Assembly: GCA_963701185.1 (NCBI GenBank)
Contig: OY969569.1
Location: 549,486-613,485, forward strand
From: Candidatus Gottesmanbacteria bacterium
GTDB taxonomy: Bacteria > Patescibacteriota > Microgenomatia > UBA10105 > UBA927
Direction: 5' to 3'
DNA length: 64,000 bases
Positions 6,559 through 22,153 of this stretch are shown here, piece by piece; the first letter of the stretch is position 1, and each line of letters starts with the position of its first letter. The position numbers and the translations under genes are program-made. Under the pieces are notes generated by a model that was given only the letters and a program-made list of their open reading frames with translations, had not been told where the DNA came from and did no database searches.

Positions 6559-7746
6559 CTACAGCACCCCTAACTCTTTTCCAACTTTGGCGAACATGGC
6601 AAGGCCGATGTCGAGGTCTTTTTTGGAATGACTTGCCGAGGGCATGACGCGGATGCGTGCGCGTCCTAAGGCGACCATAGGATATTTAATCGGCGTGGCA
6701 AACACCCCGTTTTCAAATAACTTTGCCGAAAAATTTTTGGCAAGATTTTCGTCACCGAGCATCACCGGCGTAATCGGTGTTTCGCTGTTGCCGATATCGA
6801 ACCCGAGCTTCGTAAATCCCCGTTTGAGATATTCTGCATTATCCCAGAGCTTATTGACCAGTGAGCTCGATTTCGTAAGCACTCTGATGGCTTCTATAAT
6901 TGCGGCGGTATCGGCAACCGTAAGTCCCGTTGAAAACAAAAACGGCCTACCCTTTTGTTTGTAATACTCAATGAGTTCTTTCTTTCCTGCAATCACGCCG
7001 CCCAACACGCCGAATGCCTTGGAAAATGTACCGACTTCGATATCCACTTTTCCGTGAAGATTAAAGTTATGCACAATGCCGCGTCCTCCTCCTAACACTC
7101 CTTCGCCGTGCGCATCGTCCACCATCGTAATAGCACCGTATTTTTTAGCCAACCTTACGATCGCGGGGAGGCGCGCAATATCCCCGTCCATACTAAACAC
7201 GCCGTCGGTGGCAATCATGATGATGTGTTGGCCGGGAATTTTTTTTGCTTCTTTCAGTTTTGCTTCCAGATCTCCCATGTCCCCGTGTTTGAAAATAAAT
7301 TTGTTTTTAATCTGCGCAATTTTTATGGCATCGATAATGGACGCGTGATTCAGTTCATCGGAGATAACGATGTCTTCCTTTCCCATCACGGTTTGGATGG
7401 CAACGATGTTTGCAATAAACCCGCCGGGGAGCAAGAATGCCGCTTCTGCATGTTTGAAGCGCGCAATCGCTTCCTCCGCCTGTTCATGTAACTTCAGATT
7501 TCCGGAAAGAGGACGGACAGCTCCCGGTCCGACGCCGTATTCGTGTACTGCCGCTACTACCGCATCGACCAGTCTTTTATCTGATGCAAATCCCAGATAA
7601 TTATTGGAGCAAAAATTCAAAACACGTTTCCCGTTCACCTGTAACCAGGATCCCTGCGGGGATTCAACGGTCCGGAGAGTCGTATACAACCCCTTGGCCT
7701 TCATGTCTTCAATCGTATCGTAATATGGTTTCAGCGGATCAATCAT
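6559..7746 (-). CDS. kbl: 2-amino-3-ketobutyrate CoA ligase (glycine C-acetyltransferase) / 8-amino-7-oxononanoate synthase family PLP enzyme.
   Basis: Class-II aminotransferase pattern: the motifs [22 protein letters not shown] and GTFSKAFG (PLP lysine). It sits directly upstream of a tdh-like gene. Confidence 0.8.
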
Positions 7747-9816: not shown

Positions 9817-10149
9817 AGTTTTAAGATTCGGTCTCTGCGGCTAAGGTGGATCACATTTTGTGCCATCAGCTCCCTAAAAAGGTACGTTCACCGCAGAGAT
9901 CATTCGGTACCCAAATATTACCATATTTTTCTATCTTTGCGCCGTTTGCCAAATACTTCTAGAAATAAAAATGGATTTATTTTCTCAAGATAGTCTTTAA
10001 AGACATTAAGTTGTAAAATCAGATCAGCTGTAACGTAATAGCGAAGACCAATTTTAACAGCAGTAATAAGTGGAATATGAGGGTCGAGTAGATATTGTTT
10101 GATATACTCGTCCTGGCTAAATAGGTCCGAGCCAATTACGGTATCCAGC

Positions 10150-12761
<2,612 letters not shown>

Positions 12762-12909
12762 GCGACACTCGGTATATATATTTTTTTTGTGTTTGTCAAA
12801 TCCAAAAATGCTTGACTCCTGTAAAAAAGCATTCATAATAAAAATAGTCATTGACATTCAATGAAAAATGTCATTATCTACATATAGAAAGAATTTATTT
12901 TTTACTACT

Positions 12910-13296
12910 ATGTTGAACGCACCGGATAAAAAACACGACCAATATTTCGGACAGGAACTCATATTAAATTTATATGAGTGCAATCCTGAAAAAATTTCGT
13001 CCGGAGAAGAAATTAAAAAATTTGTCATTGAACTCTGCGACAACGTCATAAAAATGAAACGATATGGGGAAGCATTCATTCCCCATTTCGGTCATGAAAA
13101 TCCCATGACGAGCGGCTACTCACTGGTACAACTTATCGAAACCAGTTCCGTGACTGCACATTTTTCCGAGTACAAAAAAAGCGTGTATCTGAATATTTTT
13201 TCCTGCGCGTGGTATGATCCGGTGAAAACCCGCGACTTCTGTGCAAAATTTTTCGAAGCAAAACGATTCGAAGAACATCTCATCATGCGCGAATAA
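12910..13296 (+). CDS. S-adenosylmethionine decarboxylase proenzyme-like (small SpeH type, pyruvoyl-dependent).
   Basis: LILNLYEC...GYSLVQLIETSSVTAHFSEY...NIFSCAWYDP follows the SpeH pattern (LYEC, ESH..HTWPE, D.F.CG). The processing site reads ETSS. Confidence 0.55.
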   Translation: MLNAPDKKHDQYFGQELILNLYECNPEKISSGEEIKKFVIELCDNVIKMKRYGEAFIPHFGHENPMTSGYSLVQLIETSSVTAHFSEYKKSVYLNIFSCAWYDPVKTRDFCAKFFEAKRFEEHLIMRE

Positions 13297-13313
13297 TCTG
13301 CTATGATAGATGT

Positions 13314-14174
13314 ATGAATCCGCTTTCCCTCTTCGCGTTCGTCATCTTTGCCGCAGAGACAGTGATATCACCGATTCCGGACGATATGATAACCGCAACA
13401 CCCCTCCCGCCGAAACCCGACGTTTCTTTTGGTCAAATTGTTGACGTGCCCACACCAACCCCTGAGATTCTTGGAGTAACAACAATCGCTCCTACTCCTT
13501 CGCCAACGCCAAACGTCACTCAAAAGAAATCCTACACCATCGCATTTTTAGGCGACTCGATGATCGATACCATGGGACCGGGACTTCCTGCGGTTACTAA
13601 TCAACTGTCCCAAACATATCCGGCAACGCATTTTACCCTGTTGAATTACGGTGCCGGCGGCACGAATATTGATTACGGCATTGAACGTATAACGAATGGC
13701 TATACGTATTTAGGGAAGCAAATACCGTCACTCGTATCCATGAATCCCGATATCGTCGTCTTGGAATCGTTTGCGTATAATCCGTTTCCCAATGAAAGCG
13801 GCGTCGACCGTCATTGGATGGCACTGGCCAAAGCTGTTGATACGGTACGCAAAAATGTACCCGGGGCAAAAATCATTATCGCGGCAACTATTGCTCCCAA
13901 CAGTACGGCGTTCGGCGACGGGGCACCCGGCATTGCATTTAGCCCGCAGGAAAAAATCCAACGGACAACCGTCATCAAACAATATCTGGACAGTACGGTC
14001 AAGTTTGCCGCCAGCCAGCATCTGCCGTTGGCCGATGCCTATCATGCAAGTATCGGCGGTAACGGGGACGGAATACTCACATATATAAATAGCGGCGACC
14101 ACATCCATTATTCCGACGCCGGACGCGCACTGTTTGCAAAAAAAGTAGTCGCCGCCATCCAGGCTGTGCTATAA
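13314..14174 (+). CDS. Secreted SGNH/GDSL-family hydrolase.
   Basis: Signal peptide, an IAFLGDSMID (GDS) block, the YGAGGTN motif, and a C-terminal DHIHYS (DxxH) block. Confidence 0.7.
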   Translation: MNPLSLFAFVIFAAETVISPIPDDMITATPLPPKPDVSFGQIVDVPTPTPEILGVTTIAPTPSPTPNVTQKKSYTIAFLGDSMIDTMGPGLPAVTNQLSQTYPATHFTLLNYGAGGTNIDYGIERITNGYTYLGKQIPSLVSMNPDIVVLESFAYNPFPNESGVDRHWMALAKAVDTVRKNVPGAKIIIAATIAPNSTAFGDGAPGIAFSPQEKIQRTTVIKQYLDSTVKFAASQHLPLADAYHASIGGNGDGILTYINSGDHIHYSDAGRALFAKKVVAAIQAVL

Positions 14175-14183
14175 TACGCTCCT

Positions 14184-14357
14184 ATGGCTAAAAAAGACCA
14201 ACGAGCACTCTTGGCCCTCGTCTGTTCTGTATGCAAACACCAGAACTACATTTCCGTGCGCAATAAGGTGAATACACCGGAAAAAATAACCCTGAATAAA
14301 TATTGCCGGTATTGTAAAAAGCACACACTGCACAAAGAGACGAGCAAACTTGATTAA
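14184..14357 (+). CDS. rpmG: 50S ribosomal protein L33 (57 aa, below the ORF-track cutoff).
   Basis: The translation MAKKDQRALLALVCSVCKHQNYISVRNKVNTPEKITLNKYCRYCKKHTLHKETSKLD has L33 Cys-x2-Cys pairs and NTP..L.L.KYC..C.KHT.H.E. Confidence 0.85.
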   Translation: MAKKDQRALLALVCSVCKHQNYISVRNKVNTPEKITLNKYCRYCKKHTLHKETSKLD

Positions 14358-14363
14358 CGCTGT

Positions 14364-14876
14364 ATGCATCGAAATACCCTGCTTCTGGTAAGTATCCTTG
14401 CGATATGCGCGGCGCTACTTATCGGCGTCAATATCGGGAAACGGCTGCAAAAACAAACACCCTCTCCTGCAGTACTCCAAGACCCTACTCCAACACCGGG
14501 TATTACCACACAAACGTATATGAACACGTACTGCGGATTTTCACTCTCGTATCCCACAACCTACACTATGTTGGAAAATGCATCCGGCAGCGCCATTTTA
14601 AATAGTCCGACGGATAAAACGCAGTCCATAACGCTCACGTGCCAAAAGGGAATCCCCAGACCGGCACTTCCCGCGGATAAAATTGAAACCCTGACTATTT
14701 CTACAACTACCGGATCTAGTATATCCGCGAAGTTGTATCACAACAGTTCCGCAAGTACAGGGACGCCGATTGACGCCGTTATTTTCCGTCACCCGACCCG
14801 CGGCATGGACGGCTTCATCGCCGGCTATGGAGATGCATTCAATGCCGCCATCCAAACCCTCCAGATACTCCCTTAA
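14364..14876 (+). CDS. Membrane-anchored hypothetical protein.
   Basis: N-terminal TM helix and a TPTPG linker. It sits directly downstream of rpmG. Confidence 0.5.
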   Translation: MHRNTLLLVSILAICAALLIGVNIGKRLQKQTPSPAVLQDPTPTPGITTQTYMNTYCGFSLSYPTTYTMLENASGSAILNSPTDKTQSITLTCQKGIPRPALPADKIETLTISTTTGSSISAKLYHNSSASTGTPIDAVIFRHPTRGMDGFIAGYGDAFNAAIQTLQILP

Positions 14877-14926
14877 CATACCTCTTGTTTCCATAAAACG
14901 GACCTCCTATAATGGTTATATAACCT

Positions 14927-15622
14927 ATGTCGTACTCTCAAAAATATAGAAACAGAGCAATCATATTGCGCAAAAAAGGATATTCAGTCAAAGAAATTGC
15001 CAAAATAATGAAAATCTCAGTCAGCTCTTCTTCTACATGGTGTTCCACGGTCAAAATCGGTAAAAAAGCTCAAAGAATATTAGCTACCAAACAGAAATTG
15101 TCTCTTATCCGTGCGAACCAAACACTTAGTGATAGTAGAAAAAAATTCGACACGTTTATGCACCAAAGCGCGAAACATGAACTATCCTCACTGCGTTTTT
15201 CGAAACCACTTTGTAAGCTCTTATGTGCTATTTTTGTCTGGACCGAGGGTGGAAAAGCCGAAAAATATCGAGTAACGTTTACTAATTCGGATCCAATGAT
15301 GATCCAAACATTTCTTACATTACTTCGTACTAGTTTTGATATCGATGAAAGAAAATTTCGAGGTTTAATTCACGTTCATGAATATCATAATGAAAAACAA
15401 ATGAAAATTTTTTGGTCATTAATAACAAAAATTCCTATCAACCAGTTTAATAATAGTTTTCATAAAGCTAATACTAAGAAACGAATACGCCTTGATTATA
15501 AAGGCAGCATGCATGTGACTTACTATGATACGAAAGTTGCCCACGAACTCCGAGCATTATACAATACGTTTGCACAACAATTTGTGCCTAACCTCAAAAC
15601 ATTGGGGAAAAGAGAATTATAG
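14927..15622 (+). CDS. Putative LAGLIDADG-type homing-endonuclease-like protein with an N-terminal HTH.
   Basis: Very AT-rich gene. N-terminal HTH (ILRKKGYSVKEIAKIM). The motif LLCAIFVWTEGGK resembles a degenerate LAGLIDADG dodecapeptide. The stop overlaps the first nucleotides of tRNA-Trp. Confidence 0.4.
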   Translation: MSYSQKYRNRAIILRKKGYSVKEIAKIMKISVSSSSTWCSTVKIGKKAQRILATKQKLSLIRANQTLSDSRKKFDTFMHQSAKHELSSLRFSKPLCKLLCAIFVWTEGGKAEKYRVTFTNSDPMMIQTFLTLLRTSFDIDERKFRGLIHVHEYHNEKQMKIFWSLITKIPINQFNNSFHKANTKKRIRLDYKGSMHVTYYDTKVAHELRALYNTFAQQFVPNLKTLGKREL

Positions 15623-15694
15623 GGGCGTGGTGAAATGGTATCACAGCAGTCTCCAAAACTGCTTTTTCAGGTTCGAATCCTGACGCCCCTGCCA
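15621..15694 (+). tRNA. tRNA-Trp (anticodon CCA), with the 3' CCA encoded.
   Basis: Acceptor AGGGGCG/CGCCCCT, anticodon stem GCAGT/ACTGC with loop CUCCAAA, T-arm TCAGG-TTCGAAT-CCTGA. Confidence 0.85.
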
Positions 15695-16190
15695 GACGTG
15701 CAATGTTCTACCCGTCCACGAGGGTACCCTCGAATAGCTTGCTGTGGCTTGCTAATTCCTTCGCATTTCAACATTTTTCACTTCAACGGCCTGTAAAACA
15801 CGGTTGTGGGACTATGTAATGCGGAGTGCGCGGTTGTGGAGGACAAACTTGGCTTGATAAATGCTCTCCCGCTCATCAGACTCACTGGATTTGCGTGCAT
15901 ACAAACAGTATGCAATTGTTGAGGTTTCGGTCGTTATGATATCCATAGGCGTATATGTTTTTTCAGGCGTTTTGACGTCATAAAGAACCGATCAATATAC
16001 ACCCGGTCATGCGTCAGAAGATACTTATAAAAATACCGTTCACACCTGTTCACCCGCTTTTCAAGGATCGCTTTTTCTCTTTCCTTTTCCATCAGGGTAT
16101 ACAGTACCGCAACGGTGGGTGAAGTCTAGAGGGAAAGAGCTATAAGGATAGAACTACGGTAGGGATTAAAAGCCACAACGTTAATCTGAT

Positions 16191-18065
16191 CTATTTTGAA
16201 GATCCGTTGAGTAACTGTTTTTTCAATTTCAAATACCTCTCTGTAAAATATACTCCATTTTGGGATTCTCTTAAATCAAACCCAAAAGCACGTCTACTAA
16301 CGGCAATAATCGGTGGAGCTTGTATTCGTTTAAAATAATTATTCTTAAAAAGCTTCCATTTGTGCTCTAAATCAGCAATAAATTCATTTGCTGTAGGAAA
16401 ATATTTATTAACCAACCCTTTTTTTATCATTAATGCCTCTTCCAACTTTCCACTTTGGTATAAGTCTAAGATGTATTCAGGATCACGTCTAAATTCTATA
16501 AAAGCTCTCATTAGCTTGTCATGATACGGATAGAGAATCGGATCTCCCATCCCTTTTGTAACATCCTGTTTACTACTGAGTTCCGCGGAGGGCACAACAT
16601 CGATAATCTCTTGAGGGATAATCTTCTTTCCATGAATTTTATTAATGTACTTTGCCAACTGATAGATCTCCCATTTATATAAATCTCCAAGCGGAGCAAT
16701 TGCCCCGTTAACATCCCCATATAGCGTAGAATACCCCAACGCTATTTCGGTTTTATTGCCGTTGTTTACGAATAATGCTCCTAAACTGGCAGCGATACCA
16801 GCCAATACTCTGCCACCTCTGTCTCTGGCCTGAATATTTTCTGAAACAGCCTCCGTTACCGAAAATCCGCCGTTGTTGAGCTCGTGAACCGTTAAATCTA
16901 CAGACTCCTGTATGGGAAATACGTGATAGTTAATACCTAGATTTTCTGCCAGCTTCTTTGCTGCGGTCCTTGTCAGATTGGAATTGAATTTTGACGGCAT
17001 ATTCACGGCATGGACATTTTCCTTACCTAATGCTTCTGTCAGCAAACATGCCGAAACCGCCGAATCAATACCACCGCTTATGCCAATAACGACTTTCTTG
17101 CTTAATCCGTTAAAAAATTTTCTGATTCCGTAAATCAGTCCCCGGTGTAATTCCTCCGTATCGCGTTCGTCGGATGAAGGAAGGGATTTGATTTCGGCTG
17201 TTTTTGTCAAACCCACTACAACGTCAACCGTTTCCTCCTTATATTCATTTGCGGTTATCATGATAGAACCGTCGGGATTATATACCGTTGTTCCACCGTC
17301 AAAAAGGAAAATATTTTTACCATTATTTTGGATACCAACATTATTATCATAGATAAATGGAATAGGGTCTTTTTCGAGAAGCGCCCTGACAATCCTATGT
17401 CTTTTGTCATTTTTTCTCCATGTCCATGGAGATGCTGACACATTGACGATAACTTCCGCACCGTTTCTCACTAAAATATTAGTTGGGTTAACGGCATAAT
17501 CATTGCACCACATATCTTCACACAGAATAGCCCCGACCATAATAGAATTTTTATCGATTTTGATAGGAAACGGCTTCAGAAGATTATTTAAACTTACCCC
17601 TCGTTCTGCCGCCAATTTCGACATTGAATAAAAATGCCGTTCTTCATCGAATTCCCGATATTTGGGCATGAGTGTTTTATATGTATGTCCATCGAACACA
17701 CCATTAGGTACCCATTCACCTTCCTGAGCAATATGGACTGCATTATATTTTCTCGTTCTCCCATCCTCACCAATTTTGCTAAAATCGGCTTGAACATTTC
17801 CCCACATAATCGCAATTCCTGAGCTTGCAGCAAGAATCCGCTCGTTAAACCCCATCAAATCAGCGATAAAACTATCATTTTCCCATTCATCACCCAACAA
17901 ATATCCCGGAACTGCCATTTCGGGGAAAATAATAATATCAATTTTTCTCTTTTTCGCTAACTCTGTTTCCTTAAGAATTTTTGCAACGTTCACATCAGGA
18001 TGACCGGGAGATACATCCATTTGTGTTAAGGCAAAATTAATTTCTCGATTCATGGCAAAAAGCAT
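16191..18065 (-). CDS. nadE: Glutamine-dependent NAD+ synthetase (N-terminal nitrilase/CN-hydrolase domain plus NAD synthetase domain).
   Basis: CN-hydrolase motifs (FPEMAVPGY, active-site Cys region) and the PP-loop GISGGIDSAV. Confidence 0.9.
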   Translation of the reverse strand: MLFAMNREINFALTQMDVSPGHPDVNVAKILKETELAKKRKIDIIIFPEMAVPGYLLGDEWENDSFIADLMGFNERILAASSGIAIMWGNVQADFSKIGEDGRTRKYNAVHIAQEGEWVPNGVFDGHTYKTLMPKYREFDEERHFYSMSKLAAERGVSLNNLLKPFPIKIDKNSIMVGAILCEDMWCNDYAVNPTNILVRNGAEVIVNVSASPWTWRKNDKRHRIVRALLEKDPIPFIYDNNVGIQNNGKNIFLFDGGTTVYNPDGSIMITANEYKEETVDVVVGLTKTAEIKSLPSSDERDTEELHRGLIYGIRKFFNGLSKKVVIGISGGIDSAVSACLLTEALGKENVHAVNMPSKFNSNLTRTAAKKLAENLGINYHVFPIQESVDLTVHELNNGGFSVTEAVSENIQARDRGGRVLAGIAASLGALFVNNGNKTEIALGYSTLYGDVNGAIAPLGDLYKWEIYQLAKYINKIHGKKIIPQEIIDVVPSAELSSKQDVTKGMGDPILYPYHDKLMRAFIEFRRDPEYILDLYQSGKLEEALMIKKGLVNKYFPTANEFIADLEHKWKLFKNNYFKRIQAPPIIAVSRRAFGFDLRESQNGVYFTERYLKLKKQLLNGSSK

Positions 18066-18181
18066 TATATATCACTAGTCTATAAAATATCTAACTTTAT
18101 CGCCTAATAGAGCCTTCCGTGTATTAGGGTTTGAGTAAAAATGGAGAAATGTATGGCTTTAATAAATGGCGATTTTTACTT

Positions 18182-19228
18182 TTATCTATATAGCGATAAA
18201 TAATCTACCATCTTCTGCCAATACCGTTGCGGATCTTTTACATCCATAGCAACTTGGATTGTGTGTAGTCCAAAATCTTTATTTGCCATATACTCACGAG
18301 CTGTTCCGATTGCTCCCGTCTGATCTACCATGACTTGCATGGGATAAATTTCAAAATTCCCTGGATCAAGTTGAACAAGTTGTGCAGTTAAATCATGTAT
18401 GGCAGCACCATCAAAATTGATTCTATTATATGGAGGTCTTCTATTCCCTCTTGTATTTTCAGGAAAAGTGAAGAAATTATAATATGTAGAATCCGAACCA
18501 ATGAATGTTTTCATTATACCTGCCATTGATTGGGAACCTCTTAATTGCAATTCTTTATAGAGCCATTCAAATCTATCTCGTGTAAGCCCAAGTTTCGGTT
18601 TTTGTGTAAGATCAATGGGAACAAGAGTGAAGGGAATTCCTCCTAAATTACAGCTTCGTAAAACCATTTCTAATGCTTGTGGATCATTAGACAAATTCCA
18701 TTCTACATTCATGCTAAAATTACCTTCTTCAAACAAAGTTCCCCCCATTACGGTAACGCTTTTTACTTTCCCTTCCATATCTGGACGGGTAATCATTCTT
18801 GCTAATTCTGTTACCGCTCCTAATGAAATTACGTGAGCTGTTGCCTCTGGATTTGCTGCCAAATGATCATAAATTACTCCAGATGGTTCTAATGTCCGAT
18901 TTGAAGATCTTTGTATTCCTTCCATTCCATTCGCACCCATAATAAAATCAGCATTTCCTGAATACGCTAGTTTTCCATGTAAAGCTTGCTCAGCTCCAGA
19001 ATAATAGAATCGTTCTGGAAAAGACGCATCAGATTGACGAAGTTCATCAATAAGTGTTCCTAATGTAAGAAGATTTTTCCCAGTCTGTTTGGTTGAATCA
19101 TTACCATAAATAGCAATTGAATCAATTTCAGTAAATTGTTCGGAAGCAGCAGCGGTAGCCGCTAAGACAGCGACTGCGTCATCAATACCAGGATCAGTAT
19201 TTATAACAATCTGTTTGTCAATTTTTAT
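18182..19228 (-). CDS. Inosine-uridine-preferring nucleoside hydrolase family protein. The N-terminus is recovered upstream of the listed ORF, and the start codon is unclear.
   Basis: In-frame extension upstream of MGANG gives IKIDKQIVINTDPGIDDAVAVLAA (the DxDxxxDD Ca-binding motif). There is no ATG/GTG/TTG in frame after the upstream stop; candidate starts are ATA/ATT at about 19228/19222. Confidence 0.65.
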   Translation of the reverse strand: MKIDKQIVINTDPGIDDAVAVLAATAAASEQFTEIDSIAIYGNDSTKQTGKNLLTLGTLIDELRQSDASFPERFYYSGAEQALHGKLAYSGNADFIMGANGMEGIQRSSNRTLEPSGVIYDHLAANPEATAHVISLGAVTELARMITRPDMEGKVKSVTVMGGTLFEEGNFSMNVEWNLSNDPQALEMVLRSCNLGGIPFTLVPIDLTQKPKLGLTRDRFEWLYKELQLRGSQSMAGIMKTFIGSDSTYYNFFTFPENTRGNRRPPYNRINFDGAAIHDLTAQLVQLDPGNFEIYPMQVMVDQTGAIGTAREYMANKDFGLHTIQVAMDVKDPQRYWQKMVDYLSLYR

Positions 19229-20343
19229 AGTAGTTTCATTCGAGGATTATCGATATATTTTCGTCCAACTTTCGCAATTTCTTTTTTTCCAACTTTTACA
19301 ATATCTGCGGTAAAATCATTTTTACCATCAAACATTGCAGAACCAACAGCATACACATCTACTGGCGTATTTTTTTGCTCAAACCAAAGAATTTTTTCCT
19401 TATTAAATCCTCCAGAGGTAATAATTTTTACATGAACGAAGCCTTTTTTATTTAATGCCTCTCGTACCATTTTTACTAATGTAGGATTTACCCCGCGTAA
19501 CTCAGTTTTACTTTCAGAAGGTCTTTTAAGACTTTTGTCTACCATGTTTTCTGATGTATCCAATCGTATTCCCCACAATTTCCCTCCAAATTTTTCTGCG
19601 GCTTGTAGTGCAGTTCGAACACAGTCATTCTCAAAATCTACAAGTGCAATCAGGTGCCTTTTTGGAAAGTATTTAGCATATTGGCTGGTCGTTTCAATTG
19701 TATCGCCGTTATTAATAGCAATGAGTGCATGGGGTATTGTCCCCACTGCTTCACCTTTAAACCATTTACCCTGTGCTTGAGTACAAATATTTGTTACTCC
19801 TCCAATTCGCGCAGCGTAACCATCAGCCTCTTGATTAAGAAAGTAGTCAAACCTGTCTGCAAAAAATAATACGGGTTTTCCATTTGCCGCGGTAACTATC
19901 TTACTGGCATTTGTTGCAATACGGGTTTGTCTCGCCAATATCCCAAGATATAACGACTCTAAATGTGCAAAGTAGGAATAGGAGCCAGTTATATGCATAA
20001 CTGGCTCTCCTTTATTTATAATCTTTCCCTCAGGAAGTGTTTTTATTGCTAACGTGTCATATTTGGACACCCACATAGAATCTTCAAAATATCCTGTTCC
20101 AATCTTTAGAAGTTCTATTACTTGATTTATTCCACACAATGTTGCGTTGTTTTGTTTTTGGAAAATTTGCATGGTAACTGATTTAAGGTTATTCTCGTGG
20201 AGAAGAATTTCTTTTGTCCTATTGAAGTACACAGCAGAATAATATCCCTTTCGAATTTTTTTAATTGTTGAGTTATTCCAAATTTTCATAATAAGCGAAA
20301 CATAATTGAGTGGATAAGCAATTACCTTCACTGTACATGGCAA
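19225..20343 (-). CDS. Nicotinate phosphoribosyltransferase family protein.
   Basis: The blocks VGTIPHALIAI and GIRLDTS (GxRxDSG-like) match NAPRTase-family proteins. Confidence 0.7.
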   Translation of the reverse strand: MPCTVKVIAYPLNYVSLIMKIWNNSTIKKIRKGYYSAVYFNRTKEILLHENNLKSVTMQIFQKQNNATLCGINQVIELLKIGTGYFEDSMWVSKYDTLAIKTLPEGKIINKGEPVMHITGSYSYFAHLESLYLGILARQTRIATNASKIVTAANGKPVLFFADRFDYFLNQEADGYAARIGGVTNICTQAQGKWFKGEAVGTIPHALIAINNGDTIETTSQYAKYFPKRHLIALVDFENDCVRTALQAAEKFGGKLWGIRLDTSENMVDKSLKRPSESKTELRGVNPTLVKMVREALNKKGFVHVKIITSGGFNKEKILWFEQKNTPVDVYAVGSAMFDGKNDFTADIVKVGKKEIAKVGRKYIDNPRMKLL

Positions 20344-20391
20344 GTATTATATATCGACTTTCCGATATAAAAATGGCCAGTTTTTCTAATT

Positions 20392-21930
20392 TTATTTTTG
20401 TGAACGAAGAATAATCGCCGCGTGACGAAGCGCTTTAGTAAATTCTGCTGGATTTCTTAGCACTATATCAGCCGAACGTAAAAATTCAGGTGCATCTTTC
20501 GTCATATCAAGATTACCCTCAATACCAATAACAACGCCCCGTCTCATCTTGGTCACTTCTGCAATTGGTGTGTCTCCAAACCCATCCGCCACAAAACCCC
20601 AGGTTCCTTCTAGTTTTTCTGCTGCTATTCCCTTATGTATTATTTTTCCGTCTAATGTCCCTTTGATTCCAACTATAGCAAGATTTCCATTTTCTTCGCT
20701 TGGTTGCATTCGATAAAAGTTAACAGCGACATCTCTGTCATAACTAAGTCCATGTCGGTCTGCTATTGTTCGAAACACCGGTTCAAATATTGTAGAAACT
20801 ATCTCAGCGTCATGTGAAGTATCTTCATCATATTCAAACCAAAATGAAGATCTACAGTCTCCTTGCCATTGATAATTACCGGCACAGAAGGCAAATTTAC
20901 CTTTTTGTGTTGCTACTCGAACATCGTGCCACCTTGAAAGAAATCCCGCGTGATTTTCCAATACGCCCCGCATATTTTCCATGAATAGTCTATGGTTTGG
21001 GTGTCCGAGATATTCGATTGCACCGTGTTGGACTATTTTTTGACCCTCTTCTAAAATAGCCGGGCCGGAAAGTTGCAATCCTTGTTCACGTAAATAGTTT
21101 GTGACATGTATCCCTCTGCCTGTCGCAGGGCCAATTATTATCCCTTGAGCTTCAAGAAGCTGAAGTGTTGGGATAATATCAAGCGTGGTAAATCGAGGGT
21201 CATGAAGGCTATCTGCATGGAAAACTACTCCGTCCATATCCAAAAGTAATTGAGGTTGCGTTTGTGATATGAAATGATTAGCCAATAACTCACCCGCCCT
21301 TTTAACTATTGGCTCTCGTTGCGCTGCCTCTTTTTTGTCAGGAACTTGTTGAAACCGGTCAGTAGACATAAGGAGAAGTATATCAATATAGGCAGCTATT
21401 GCGGGGCCTACGAGATCGGTTATATCCTCGCCTGCCATCACTTTGGCTCGCACCTCCGTTGATGAAACAGCTACTTCATTTACTCCACTTATAGGAACCA
21501 TTCCCTTCAGTAAGTTTTCCATCGGATAATTTGGCCTTGGATAAACGTAAACAGTAAACTGTTCCAGCAGCTCACGGTACTTATACCATTTAGGGAAACT
21601 TGCAATGTTATCGCTGCCAATGACCCATGCAAATGTGTTGGAGGGCTGCGATTCCTCAAAATGTCTTAAAGTTTCATAAGAATAGCTTGTGGTTTCCTTT
21701 TCTAATTCATATTTTTCAATTCTAACTGGTTTTTCCCAAAAATCTTGAACAAAAAGTTGAAGCATCGCCAAACGATGATCCCCCTCAGTTAACGATTTAG
21801 AAAATGCATGTTTTCTTGCCGGGATTAACCATACTTCATCCGCGGTATATTTAGCAAGAAGGCCGGACACGATTTCTCGGTGACCGTTGTGAGGAGGGTT
21901 AAAGCTGGCACCCACAATCTCAATGTTCAT
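20392..21930 (-). CDS. nadD: Nicotinate/nicotinamide-mononucleotide adenylyltransferase fused to a C-terminal HAD-like hydrolase domain.
   Basis: N-terminal GASFNPPHNGH (HxGH nucleotidyltransferase), a C-terminal LLLDMDGVVF (DxDG HAD motif I), and later HAD blocks. Confidence 0.75.
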   Translation of the reverse strand: MNIEIVGASFNPPHNGHREIVSGLLAKYTADEVWLIPARKHAFSKSLTEGDHRLAMLQLFVQDFWEKPVRIEKYELEKETTSYSYETLRHFEESQPSNTFAWVIGSDNIASFPKWYKYRELLEQFTVYVYPRPNYPMENLLKGMVPISGVNEVAVSSTEVRAKVMAGEDITDLVGPAIAAYIDILLLMSTDRFQQVPDKKEAAQREPIVKRAGELLANHFISQTQPQLLLDMDGVVFHADSLHDPRFTTLDIIPTLQLLEAQGIIIGPATGRGIHVTNYLREQGLQLSGPAILEEGQKIVQHGAIEYLGHPNHRLFMENMRGVLENHAGFLSRWHDVRVATQKGKFAFCAGNYQWQGDCRSSFWFEYDEDTSHDAEIVSTIFEPVFRTIADRHGLSYDRDVAVNFYRMQPSEENGNLAIVGIKGTLDGKIIHKGIAAEKLEGTWGFVADGFGDTPIAEVTKMRRGVVIGIEGNLDMTKDAPEFLRSADIVLRNPAEFTKALRHAAIILRSQK

Positions 21931-22153
21931 TCTGGCATTATATCACTGTCTTATATTGCATAAGTTACGACACTTTTTAGACATTGCAGAGCAATGTCAG
22001 TCTTGAAATACGGTAAATCCGGTGTTCTCTCGCATGCATACCCAATCCTGAGTAGAATCAGAGGCCTCAAGGGGGTGATGCCTGTGATTGCTAGTCTACG
22101 GAAGTTTGATCATGAAGAGGTAGCAAAGGAACGGATGGAGGCCCTGCAAAGTA

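What the first reader, a model, noticed from the sequence alone, without database searches (positions are those of the whole stretch)
14927..15700. AT-rich LAGLIDADG-like/HTH ORF inserted flush against tRNA-Trp
The 231-aa ORF is far more AT-rich than its neighbours and has an N-terminal HTH plus a degenerate LAGLIDADG-like block. Its stop codon overlaps the first nucleotides of tRNA-Trp. It looks like a free-standing homing-endonuclease-like mobile gene (or its domesticated remnant) sitting at a tRNA gene. A 490-nt non-coding gap with ORF remnants follows (15700-16190).
Basis: partly seen in the sequence, partly recalled or inferred. Interest (0 to 1): 0.5.

Follow-up and report, generated by a model that had tools for sequence, protein, structure and literature searches.

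The report
Nuclease-like gene fused onto tRNA-Trp
A real, AT-rich gene for a DNA-binding protein with a homing-endonuclease fold ends inside the start of the tRNA-Trp gene; it belongs to a large, unnamed family of candidate-phyla-radiation bacteria whose members always sit in this position before one particular tRNA, come and go between relatives, and most likely act as selfish mobile genes living on tRNA genes.

Summary

The gene belongs to a large unnamed family from candidate-phyla-radiation (CPR) bacteria. In all 30 loci that hold a Trp-type copy, including cut and decayed ones, tRNA-Trp follows on the same strand, flush in 29. In 11 of 23 loci measured the ORF reads 9-10 nt into the tRNA and stops at U8-A9-G10. 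Sister subfamilies sit the same way on tRNA-Ala(GGC), tRNA-Arg(GCG) and tRNA-Thr(GGU). An unrelated HNH nuclease family occupies the same position.

Presence is patchy. One close relative keeps only a 38-nt tail of the ORF, four copies are disrupted, and ORF-bearing and ORF-less relatives carry different alleles of the adjacent tRNA. Intact copies are under purifying selection (dN/dS about 0.13).

Best reading: a free-standing homing-endonuclease gene, or a recent descendant, that lives at the 5' edge of a tRNA gene. Cleavage activity and the target site are untested.

The parts
14927..15622 (+). Gene for a 231-aa protein: HTH, long helix, then a LAGLIDADG-fold domain (Trp-type member of an unnamed CPR family)
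   Evidence: ORF. 57 homologues of about 220 aa. 525 clusters at 50% identity with E<=1e-30. AlphaFold pLDDT 93.5. dN/dS 0.13-0.16.
14933..15046 (+). N-terminal three-helix HTH (residues about 3-40)
15062..15187 (+). Single long helix (residues 46-87) linking the HTH to the nuclease-like domain; possibly a dimerisation helix (inference)
   Evidence: DSSP on the model, H46-87, pLDDT 95-98.
15188..15583 (+). LAGLIDADG-fold domain (residues 88-219)
15203..15256 (+). Motif helix ending in the invariant E107-G108-x-K110 (E107 codon at 15245-15247); counterpart of the LAGLIDADG helix with its terminal acidic residue
   Evidence: E107, G108 and K110 are invariant in 39 sequences and kept in the Ala- and Arg-type relatives. 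Helix 93-107 ends at E107 in the model.
15537..15565 (+). Promoter-like TTGCCC-N17-TACAAT inside the 3' end of the ORF; possible promoter for tRNA-Trp (tentative)
   Evidence: Found by the scan, where the number of sites in the region was not above shuffles. The same element, TTGC[CT][CT]-N17-TATAAT, lies 17-29 nt before the tRNA in at least 19 of 25 loci. The deletion relic L046 keeps its -10 box with a new -35 hexamer. The possible relic L034 has a TTGCAC-N17-TACAAT read by eye.
15620..15622 (+). TAG stop codon sharing two bases with tRNA positions 1-2
   Evidence: The relative L032 has its own TAA 12 nt upstream.
15621..15694 (+). tRNA-Trp(CCA), the constant partner of this protein subfamily
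   Evidence: ARAGORN. Rfam 65.2 bits. tRNA-Trp follows the ORF in all 30 loci with a Trp-type copy.
15695..16190 (.). Variable non-coding stretch just 3' of the tRNA; a breakpoint of synteny with every relative compared
   Evidence: No similarity to L026, L032 or L046 beyond the end of the tRNA. No family match for its short ORFs. Weak gapped similarity of 15956-15985 to the 3' half of the tRNA.

Best explanation
The ORF is a free-standing homing-endonuclease-type gene, or a still-functional recent descendant of one. It encodes an HTH DNA-binding module joined by a long helix to a single LAGLIDADG-fold domain, so the protein probably acts as a homodimer.

The gene lives in the 5' flank of tRNA-Trp. 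It is co-oriented with the tRNA and has no room for a terminator of its own. It ends at or inside the tRNA gene, often at the tRNA's own U8-A9-G10 read as TAG.

Inferred mechanism: the protein recognises and cuts tRNA-Trp loci that lack it. Recombinational repair then copies the ORF together with the adjoining tRNA allele into the cut chromosome. The tRNA 5' leader is a harmless place to sit, because RNase P trims everything upstream of the mature tRNA. In the Trp-type subfamily a promoter-like element inside the 3' end of the ORF may keep the tRNA expressed and make clean deletion of the ORF costly.

Shown: gene reality, fold, invariant motif, strict tRNA linkage, subfamily-to-tRNA specificity, patchy presence, decay products, and tRNA allele replacement. 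Inferred: cleavage, the target site, co-conversion, the RNase P coupling, and use of the promoter.

For: Linkage. All 30 loci with a Trp-type copy have tRNA-Trp(cca) next on the same strand. In 29 the ORF is flush or overlapping; L001 has a 69-nt gap. In 11 of 23 loci measured the ORF reads 9-10 nt into the tRNA and stops at positions 8-10.

Specificity. The Ala-type subfamily (1508 proteins) is flush with tRNA-Ala(ggc) in 5 of 5 loci. An Arg-type copy reads 15 nt into tRNA-Arg(gcg). Thr-type relics abut tRNA-Thr(ggt).

Convergence. An unrelated HNH family of about 145 aa (1426 proteins) sits identically. It overlaps tRNA-Trp or tRNA-Arg(tcg) by 10 nt in L052 and L051, and overlaps the window-type tRNA-Trp by 2 nt in L040.

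Mobility and decay. Only 3 of 18 loci with the same tRNA-Trp type carry a Trp-type copy flush upstream. L046 keeps the neighbour gene, a 38-nt ORF tail and an identical tRNA. L018, L019, L020 and L022 are truncated or frameshifted.

Allele replacement. L019 and L031 share an identical tRNA-Arg and a gene at 83% nt identity, yet their tRNA-Trp genes are only 69% identical. The ORF and its tRNA are present or absent there as one block. L037 and L031 show the mirror case for tRNA-Arg.

Composition. The ORF is the lowest-GC long ORF in the window and more AT-rich than its flanks in 20 of 20 loci.

Precedent. T4 segB lies between tRNA genes, and several T4 free-standing endonuclease genes carry embedded promoters for downstream genes (PMC2988022).

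Against: No cleavage site or target can be defined. The ORF-bearing window and the ORF-deleted relic L046 have the same tRNA, so self-immunity is unexplained.

Intact copies are under purifying selection (dN/dS 0.12-0.16), similar to neighbouring genes. The gene is syntenic in its nearest relatives. Sequence signatures follow host groups such as Roizmanbacteria. All of this fits long vertical residence and a possible host function.

The family is absent from phage, plasmid and IMG/VR collections.

The promoter-like element is not above chance in the window scan and is absent from the Ala-type and HNH tails.
Confidence: 0.62

Rival explanations
1. A domesticated LAGLIDADG-derived factor, comparable to WhiA or to intron maturases, that no longer cuts DNA. 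It would bind the DNA or the precursor RNA of its own tRNA and serve the host, for example in transcription, processing or folding of that tRNA. It would be co-transcribed with the tRNA and inherited mainly vertically.
Against: Many close relatives with the same tRNA lack the gene. Deletion relics and frameshifted copies exist. The acidic residue that WhiA has lost, by established knowledge of that family, is invariant here. An unrelated HNH nuclease family occupies exactly the same position, which is hard to explain by a tRNA-specific host function. The ORF is consistently more AT-rich than its host.
Confidence: 0.22
2. A regulator or cargo gene of an integrative element that used tRNA-Trp as its attachment site. 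Under this reading the resolvase-type HTH and the scrambled DNA after the tRNA would be what is left of that element.
For: The best Pfam match is the resolvase HTH_7. Sequence 3' of the tRNA differs in every relative compared. There is a weak similarity to the 3' half of the tRNA 260 nt downstream.
Against: The ORF lies 5' of the tRNA, whereas elements that integrate into tRNA genes lie 3' of them (established knowledge). The ORF-tRNA pair is constant while the downstream DNA varies. No recombinase domain was found in the protein or in the gap. The C-terminal domain has a LAGLIDADG fold.
Confidence: 0.05
3. A remnant of an IS630/Tc1-type or other transposase, of which only the HTH is still recognisable.
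For: Weak HTH matches to the Sleeping Beauty, IS630 and Tc3 DNA-binding domains. One source labels a homologue 'transposase'.
Against: There is no DDE or other transposase catalytic domain. The C-terminal domain folds as LAGLIDADG. No terminal inverted repeats flank the gene. No second copy lies in the window. The gene always sits at a tRNA.
Confidence: 0.03

Closest known systems
Free-standing homing endonuclease genes of T-even phages (Seg and Mob; especially SegB between tRNA genes)
   Same: A stand-alone nuclease gene inserted between host genes in the host orientation and variably present among relatives. It is inherited together with flanking markers. In T4, promoters for the downstream essential gene are embedded in several endonuclease ORFs. 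segB sits between tRNA-Arg and tRNA-Ile and targets the tRNA region (PMC2988022).
   Different: Those enzymes are GIY-YIG or HNH, phage-borne, and usually cut hundreds of bases from their gene. Here the fold is LAGLIDADG plus HTH and the host is a bacterial chromosome; no phage, plasmid or IMG/VR copy was found. The ORF is fused onto the 5' end of the tRNA and often ends inside it.
Homodimeric and single-chain LAGLIDADG homing endonucleases (I-CreI, I-MsoI, I-CeuI; I-DmoI, I-Tsp061I)
   Different: No detectable sequence similarity. An extra helix lies between strands 3 and 4. The protein has an N-terminal HTH and a 42-residue linker helix. It is not inside an intron or intein. The Trp-type subfamily has an H-x-H-E-Y-H-N cluster not known from the classical enzymes.
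WhiA (DUF199), a transcription factor derived from LAGLIDADG enzymes
   Different: WhiA has two LAGLIDADG domains and a C-terminal HTH, and lacks the catalytic acidic residues (established knowledge). Here there is one domain, the HTH is N-terminal, and the acidic residue is invariant. No Pfam WhiA match was found.
LAGLIDADG endonucleases in rRNA introns and group I introns in tRNA genes of CPR/Patescibacteria
   Same: The same bacterial group is unusually rich in endonuclease-bearing insertions in its RNA genes (PMC11270868, listed; PMC13011429).
   Different: Those elements lie inside the RNA gene within a self-splicing intron. This one lies outside the mature tRNA with no ribozyme (Rfam). 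The tRNA-intron survey does not mention this family or tRNA-Trp.
tRNA punctuation of mitochondrial transcripts
   Same: A coding region abuts a tRNA with no spacer, so tRNA processing defines the end of the mRNA (established knowledge).
   Different: In mitochondria the incomplete stop codon is completed by polyadenylation. Here RNase P cleavage would remove the stop codon and leave a non-stop mRNA, which is an inference. The arrangement here belongs to an optional gene and is not the genome's general layout.

Membership tests
LAGLIDADG homing endonucleases | Core alpha-beta-beta-alpha-beta-beta-alpha fold with the motif helix first | tested here: met
LAGLIDADG homing endonucleases | Sequence match to a LAGLIDADG family model or to a solved member | tested here: not met
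   No Pfam, NCBIfam or PDB sequence hit for the C-terminal domain, singly or as a profile. None in any of the 39 members. hhalign against I-CreI gives probability 0.1.
LAGLIDADG homing endonucleases | Conserved acidic residue at the C-terminal end of the motif helix (metal ligand) | tested here: met
   E107-G108 is invariant in 39 sequences and kept in the Ala- and Arg-type relatives. Helix 93-107 ends at E107. Equivalence to the catalytic Asp is by position only.
LAGLIDADG homing endonucleases | Site-specific cleavage of a long DNA target | not testable with these tools
   Needs purified protein and substrates.
Homing endonuclease genes in general (mobile, selfish) | Presence/absence polymorphism at one conserved site, with decayed copies | tested here: met
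   3 of 18 loci with the same tRNA-Trp type carry a Trp-type copy flush upstream. Relic in L046 and a possible relic in L034. Disrupted copies in L018, L019, L020 and L022.
Homing endonuclease genes in general (mobile, selfish) | Transfer with co-conversion of flanking DNA, seen as incongruence between element and host | tested here: inconclusive
   For: ORF-linked tRNA alleles differ from the ORF-less alleles of close relatives, and ORF dS is 0.85 against 3.1 or saturated for flanking genes between the window and L026. Against: protein signatures follow host groups. No proper trees were built.
WhiA | Two LAGLIDADG domains followed by a C-terminal HTH; acidic residues lost | tested here: not met
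   One domain, N-terminal HTH, invariant Glu. No WhiA Pfam match.
Serine recombinase/resolvase or IS630-type transposase | Catalytic recombinase or DDE domain next to the HTH | tested here: not met
   Only the HTH matches. The rest folds as LAGLIDADG.
Intron- or intein-encoded endonuclease | Lies within a self-splicing intron or an intein | tested here: not met
   Rfam at E<=1 finds only the tRNA in 14300-16400. The tRNA is uninterrupted. The ORF stands alone.

The most novel reading that the evidence does not exclude
The ORF and the tRNA form one selfish cassette, a 'tRNA gene drive'. The nuclease cuts resident alleles of its cognate tRNA gene, and the linked, resistant tRNA allele replaces them.

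The pre-tRNA 5' leader would serve as the silent harbour that introns and inteins provide elsewhere, with RNase P doing the job of splicing. Because the stop codon lies in the tRNA, RNase P processing would turn the message into a non-stop mRNA and so throttle nuclease synthesis.

At least two unrelated nuclease folds (LAGLIDADG-like and HNH) would have converged on this niche across CPR bacteria, and several tRNA species would be affected. The window-type tRNA-Trp found inserted in the anticodon loop of a resident tRNA-Trp (L029, L035, L044) would be a by-product of such attacks.
Probability: 0.3. Interest if true: 0.85.

Novelty: new variant of a known kind. Interest (0 to 1): 0.7.

Why it matters
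If correct, free-standing homing endonuclease genes have a previously undescribed habitat in cellular genomes: the 5' edge of tRNA genes. Thousands of copies from two nuclease folds in CPR bacteria would occupy it.

That would explain several things at once. It would account for a large block of 'hypothetical proteins' in these tiny genomes. It would explain why tRNA alleles can differ sharply between close relatives. It would also explain why protein-coding ORFs run into tRNA genes, which annotation pipelines tend to trim or flag.

It would add a new class of compact sequence-specific nucleases (HTH plus one LAGLIDADG domain) whose natural targets, tRNA genes, are conserved. It also gives a testable case of coupling between RNase P processing and expression of a selfish gene.

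Tried and rejected
- Sequence-based assignment of the C-terminal domain failed. Pfam, NCBIfam and PHROGs on the protein, Pfam on all 39 members, PDB phmmer and profile search, and hhalign against I-CreI all gave nothing.
- An exact look-up of the annotated 218-aa version (P0001) found no contig.
A 12-sequence alignment worked.
- Group I intron or other RNA element around the gene: none. None around the nested tRNA loci either.
- Phage, plasmid and IMG/VR origin: no matches.
- Gap 15695-16190 as a decayed recombinase or integrative element: no family or phage match for the short ORFs. The only repeat is a weak gapped resemblance to the 3' half of the tRNA. This is left open.
- Embedded promoter as a general feature: rejected. 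Only the Trp-type subfamily has it; the Ala-type and HNH tails score like background. In the window the number of promoter-like sites is not above shuffles.
- My first synonymous-codon test picked the wrong Tyr codons. The corrected one (TATAAT at 15 of 17 Tyr-Asn sites, against about 55% expected from codon use) is only suggestive, because the sequences are related.
- Other tRNAs in the window (Ser, Thr, Tyr, Thr) carry no such ORF.
Full report
**1. What is in the window**

The ORF 14927-15622 (+) encodes 231 aa. tRNA-Trp(CCA) is called at 15621-15694 by ARAGORN and at 15621-15691 by Rfam at 65.2 bits. The TAG at 15620-15622 therefore uses tRNA bases 1-2.

The ORF has GC 0.345. That is the lowest of the 85 ORFs of at least 150 aa in the window (mean 0.505, sd 0.067), and only 0.9% of windows of equal length are as AT-rich.

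The gene is real. It has 57 close homologues of about 220 aa. A profile search of 1.84 billion cluster representatives finds 525 clusters at E<=1e-30 and 3317 at E<=1e-10. dN/dS against close relatives is 0.13-0.16.

Source labels, where given, are candidate-phyla-radiation lineages. They include Woese-, Davies-, Roizman-, Gottesman- and Berkelbacteria, Parcubacteria, Paceibacterota and Wildermuthbacteria. Several MAGs are labelled 'uncultured Gammaproteobacteria'; I did not check those labels.

**2. What the protein is**

Residues 3-33 match the resolvase-type HTH (HTH_7, E 1.5e-5). HTH models match 36 of 39 members. Nothing matches the remaining roughly 190 residues by sequence.

The AlphaFold model is confident (pLDDT 93.5). 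It shows a three-helix HTH, one 42-residue helix, and then an alpha/beta domain.

The first helix of the domain (93-107) ends in E107-G108-x-K110. These residues are invariant in 39 sequences and kept in distant subfamilies. That is the position of the metal-binding acidic residue of LAGLIDADG enzymes; the equivalence is by position and is not tested.

**3. The gene is always welded to a tRNA**

Homologues were fetched without any reference to tRNAs: three by exact look-up and 19 loci by a protein-pattern scan of one genome per species. Every one has tRNA-Trp(cca) directly after the ORF on the same strand, in different gene neighbourhoods. The same holds for the closest relatives. It also holds for the copies found later through the tRNA itself.

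In total, all 30 loci with a Trp-type copy, including cut and decayed ones, have tRNA-Trp next. In 29 the ORF is flush or overlapping; L001 has a 69-nt gap.

Measured exactly, in 11 of 23 loci the ORF runs 9-10 nt into the tRNA and stops at TAG or TAA formed by tRNA positions 8-10. In most of the others it ends within a few bases of position 1. The last residues of many family members (Leu/Ile-Gly-x) are thus encoded by the acceptor stem.

In the window, the tRNA has G at position 9 and so offers no such stop. A relative 91% identical in DNA (L032) has its own TAA 12 nt before the tRNA. In the window that codon reads AAA, and the frame runs on to T|AG.

**4. Subfamilies go with particular tRNAs, and an unrelated nuclease does the same**

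A six-frame profile search of all fetched DNA and the tRNA-based scan turned up divergent relatives.

- One ends 2 nt before tRNA-Ala(ggc) (L039).
- One reads 15 nt into tRNA-Arg(gcg) (L037).
- Relics abut tRNA-Thr(ggt) (L012, L014).

The Ala-type is itself a large subfamily of 1508 proteins. Four further loci are all flush with tRNA-Ala(ggc), and two overlap it by 10 nt with the stop at positions 8-10.

In L040 the same type of tRNA-Trp as in the window is preceded by a 147-aa ORF. This ORF has an HNH motif: CxxC...DH...N...CxxCH by eye, and Pfam HNH at E 0.005, which is below the family threshold. Its stop is again T|AG across the tRNA start. That HNH family has 1426 members of about 145 aa.

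The two further HNH loci that could be read overlap tRNA-Arg(tcg) and tRNA-Trp by 10 nt, stopping at positions 8-10. Two unrelated nuclease folds in the same peculiar position is the strongest argument that the position is a niche for selfish nuclease genes. A tRNA-specific host function would not predict it.

**5. Presence, absence and decay**

I scanned metagenomes for the window's type of tRNA-Trp. Of 18 loci, 3 carry a Trp-type copy flush upstream. Twelve with at least 398 nt of upstream sequence do not.

L046 is a close relative of the window. It has the same upstream gene (75% nt identity) and an identical tRNA. The ORF is gone except for 38 nt of its 3' end at 87% identity. L034 may be a similar relic. 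L018 lacks the HTH, L019 and L020 are frameshifted with internal duplications, and L022 is riddled with stops. This is the gain, decay and loss pattern expected of homing endonuclease genes.

Against a purely selfish reading, intact copies are under purifying selection about as strong as their neighbours. C-terminal signatures are also shared within host groups.

**6. The ORF travels with its tRNA allele**

L019 and L031 share an identical tRNA-Arg and a neighbouring gene at 83% nt identity. Their tRNA-Trp genes are only 69% identical. In L019 the block [ORF + tRNA-Trp] lies between that gene and tRNA-Arg. In L031 39 nt lie there, and a different tRNA-Trp abuts tRNA-Arg.

The mirror case is L037 against L031. 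They have identical tRNA-Trp, but their tRNA-Arg genes are 72% identical. The L037 allele carries the Arg-type ORF.

L029, L035 and L044 are syntenic with the window through the GDSL lipase gene, rpmG and the 170-aa ORF, in whole or in part, at 29-56% amino-acid identity. They carry no family ORF. Their tRNA-Trp is identical or nearly identical to the window's (72 of 72 in L029). It sits inside the anticodon loop of another tRNA-Trp-like gene.

Between the window and L026, the ORF has dS 0.85, while a flanking gene has 3.1 and another is saturated. This estimate is noisy and sensitive to codon bias.

Together these results fit co-conversion of the tRNA with the nuclease gene. They do not prove it.

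**7. How it most likely works**

Shown: an HTH plus LAGLIDADG-fold protein with an invariant acidic motif. Also shown are its obligate same-strand junction with one tRNA species, patchy distribution, decay, and linked tRNA allele replacement.

Inferred:

- The protein, probably as a homodimer because it has a single LAGLIDADG domain, cuts tRNA loci that lack it.
- Repair copies the ORF plus the tRNA into the cut locus.
- The site is tolerated because everything 5' of the tRNA is removed by RNase P.
- Where the stop codon lies in the tRNA, processing would leave a non-stop message, which would limit nuclease production.

In the Trp-type subfamily the conserved motif (I/V)-A-x-E-L-x3-Y-N spells TTGCNN-N17-TATAAT, 17-29 nt before the tRNA, in at least 19 of 25 loci. 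In the window this is TTGCCC-N17-TACAAT at 15537-15565. The deletion relic L046 keeps this -10 box with a new -35 hexamer. In L034 a TTGCAC-N17-TACAAT can be read by eye just before the tRNA.

T4 offers the precedent of promoters for downstream genes embedded in free-standing endonuclease genes, which favours their retention. T4 segB also sits between tRNA genes (PMC2988022).

The promoter idea stays tentative. It is not above chance in the window scan. It is absent from the Ala-type and HNH tails. The codon-level test is only suggestive.

**8. Comparison with what is known, and novelty**

The kind of element, a free-standing homing endonuclease gene, is known. The fold is known. Three things appear undescribed.

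- The family itself. It has no Pfam or NCBIfam model, and nearly all sources call it hypothetical.
- The architecture: an N-terminal HTH, a long helix and one LAGLIDADG domain.
- The niche: flush on the 5' end of a specific tRNA gene in a bacterial chromosome, with the stop codon in the tRNA, shared with an HNH family.

Four full-text searches found no description of it. The recent survey of tRNA introns in Patescibacteria does not mention it (PMC13011429).

The family is absent from phage, plasmid and IMG/VR collections.

I rate it a new variant of a known kind. My confidence is about 0.85 that it is an HTH plus LAGLIDADG-fold DNA-binding protein. It is about 0.62 that it is, or recently was, a mobile homing-type nuclease gene targeted to tRNA-Trp.

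**9. The gap after the tRNA**

The stretch 15695-16190 has no ORF of 60 aa or more. It shows no similarity to the corresponding DNA of L026, L032 or L046, and similarity stops at the 3' end of the tRNA in each comparison.

Its short minus-strand ORFs match nothing. A 12-nt repeat with a gapped extension resembles the 3' half of the tRNA and could be an old attachment-site copy or chance.

The 3' side of the tRNA is thus a separate zone of rearrangement, and I see no evidence that it belongs to the ORF.

Noticed in passing
L029 2050-2256 (same as L042); L035; L044: A complete tRNA-Trp, 72/72 identical to the window's in L029, lies inside the anticodon loop (after C35) of another tRNA-Trp-like gene. 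It is flanked by GC-rich arms that pair with each other. RNAfold gives -96.9 kcal/mol, z -4.8. With the 112-nt insert removed in silico, ARAGORN calls a 95-nt tRNA-Trp(cca) with a long extra arm. Rfam finds no group I intron. These loci are syntenic with the window but have no family ORF. Position 35/36 is also the group I intron site reported for Patescibacteria tRNAs (PMC13011429).
   Followed up: partly
L040 2076-2519; L051 2501-2935; L052 2501-2947: An unrelated family of HNH-motif proteins of about 145 aa (1426 members, CPR labels) sits flush 5' of tRNA genes on the same strand. It overlaps tRNA-Arg(tcg) and tRNA-Trp by 10 nt with the stop at U8-A9-G10, and overlaps the window-type tRNA-Trp by 2 nt (T|AG).
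   Followed up: partly
L039 (original coordinates 7030-7686, minus strand), L047-L050; L037 171-851; L012 2271-2597, L014 2273-2605; L013 1897-2280: Sister subfamilies of the window's protein go with other tRNAs. A very large Ala-type subfamily (1508 proteins) is flush on tRNA-Ala(ggc). An Arg-type copy reads into tRNA-Arg(gcg). Frameshifted relics stand before tRNA-Thr(ggt). A decayed HTH plus 'LYMGEGTK' paralogue lies after a tRNA in L013.
   Followed up: partly
L029 about 2311-2586: A small GIY-YIG domain gene (Pfam E 8.5e-15) starts about 55 nt after the nested tRNA-Trp. In L040 a DpnI-like gene (E 9.6e-21) follows the tRNA. Nuclease genes of several kinds gather around this tRNA.
   Followed up: no
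window 10000-21000 and the whole window: GC skew is negative in nearly every sliding window regardless of gene strand, and the cumulative skew falls steadily (G 22.4%, C 25.5% over the window). This resembles the strand disparity reported for Microgenomates of order UBA1400 (PMC7143001). The source contig on record is 995,214 nt.
   Followed up: no
window 15695-16190: Similarity to every relative compared ends exactly at the 3' end of tRNA-Trp. The stretch 15956-15985 weakly resembles the 3' half of the tRNA (TG[CT]TTTTTCAGG...TGACG). A 44-aa minus-strand ORF (15812-15946) looked by eye like a serine-recombinase N-terminus but matched nothing.
   Followed up: partly
window 16191-21942: A block of genes after the gap (NAD synthase and others) is also AT-rich (GC 0.36-0.42) against a window mean of 0.48. 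The ORF studied lies at the edge of a compositional step.
   Followed up: no
L031 1172-1318 (also L036, L038, L045): tRNA-Arg(gcg), with its encoded CCA, abuts tRNA-Trp with no spacer at all. Related Roizmanbacteria loci have the family ORF between the two tRNAs (L015, L018) or before both (L037).
   Followed up: partly
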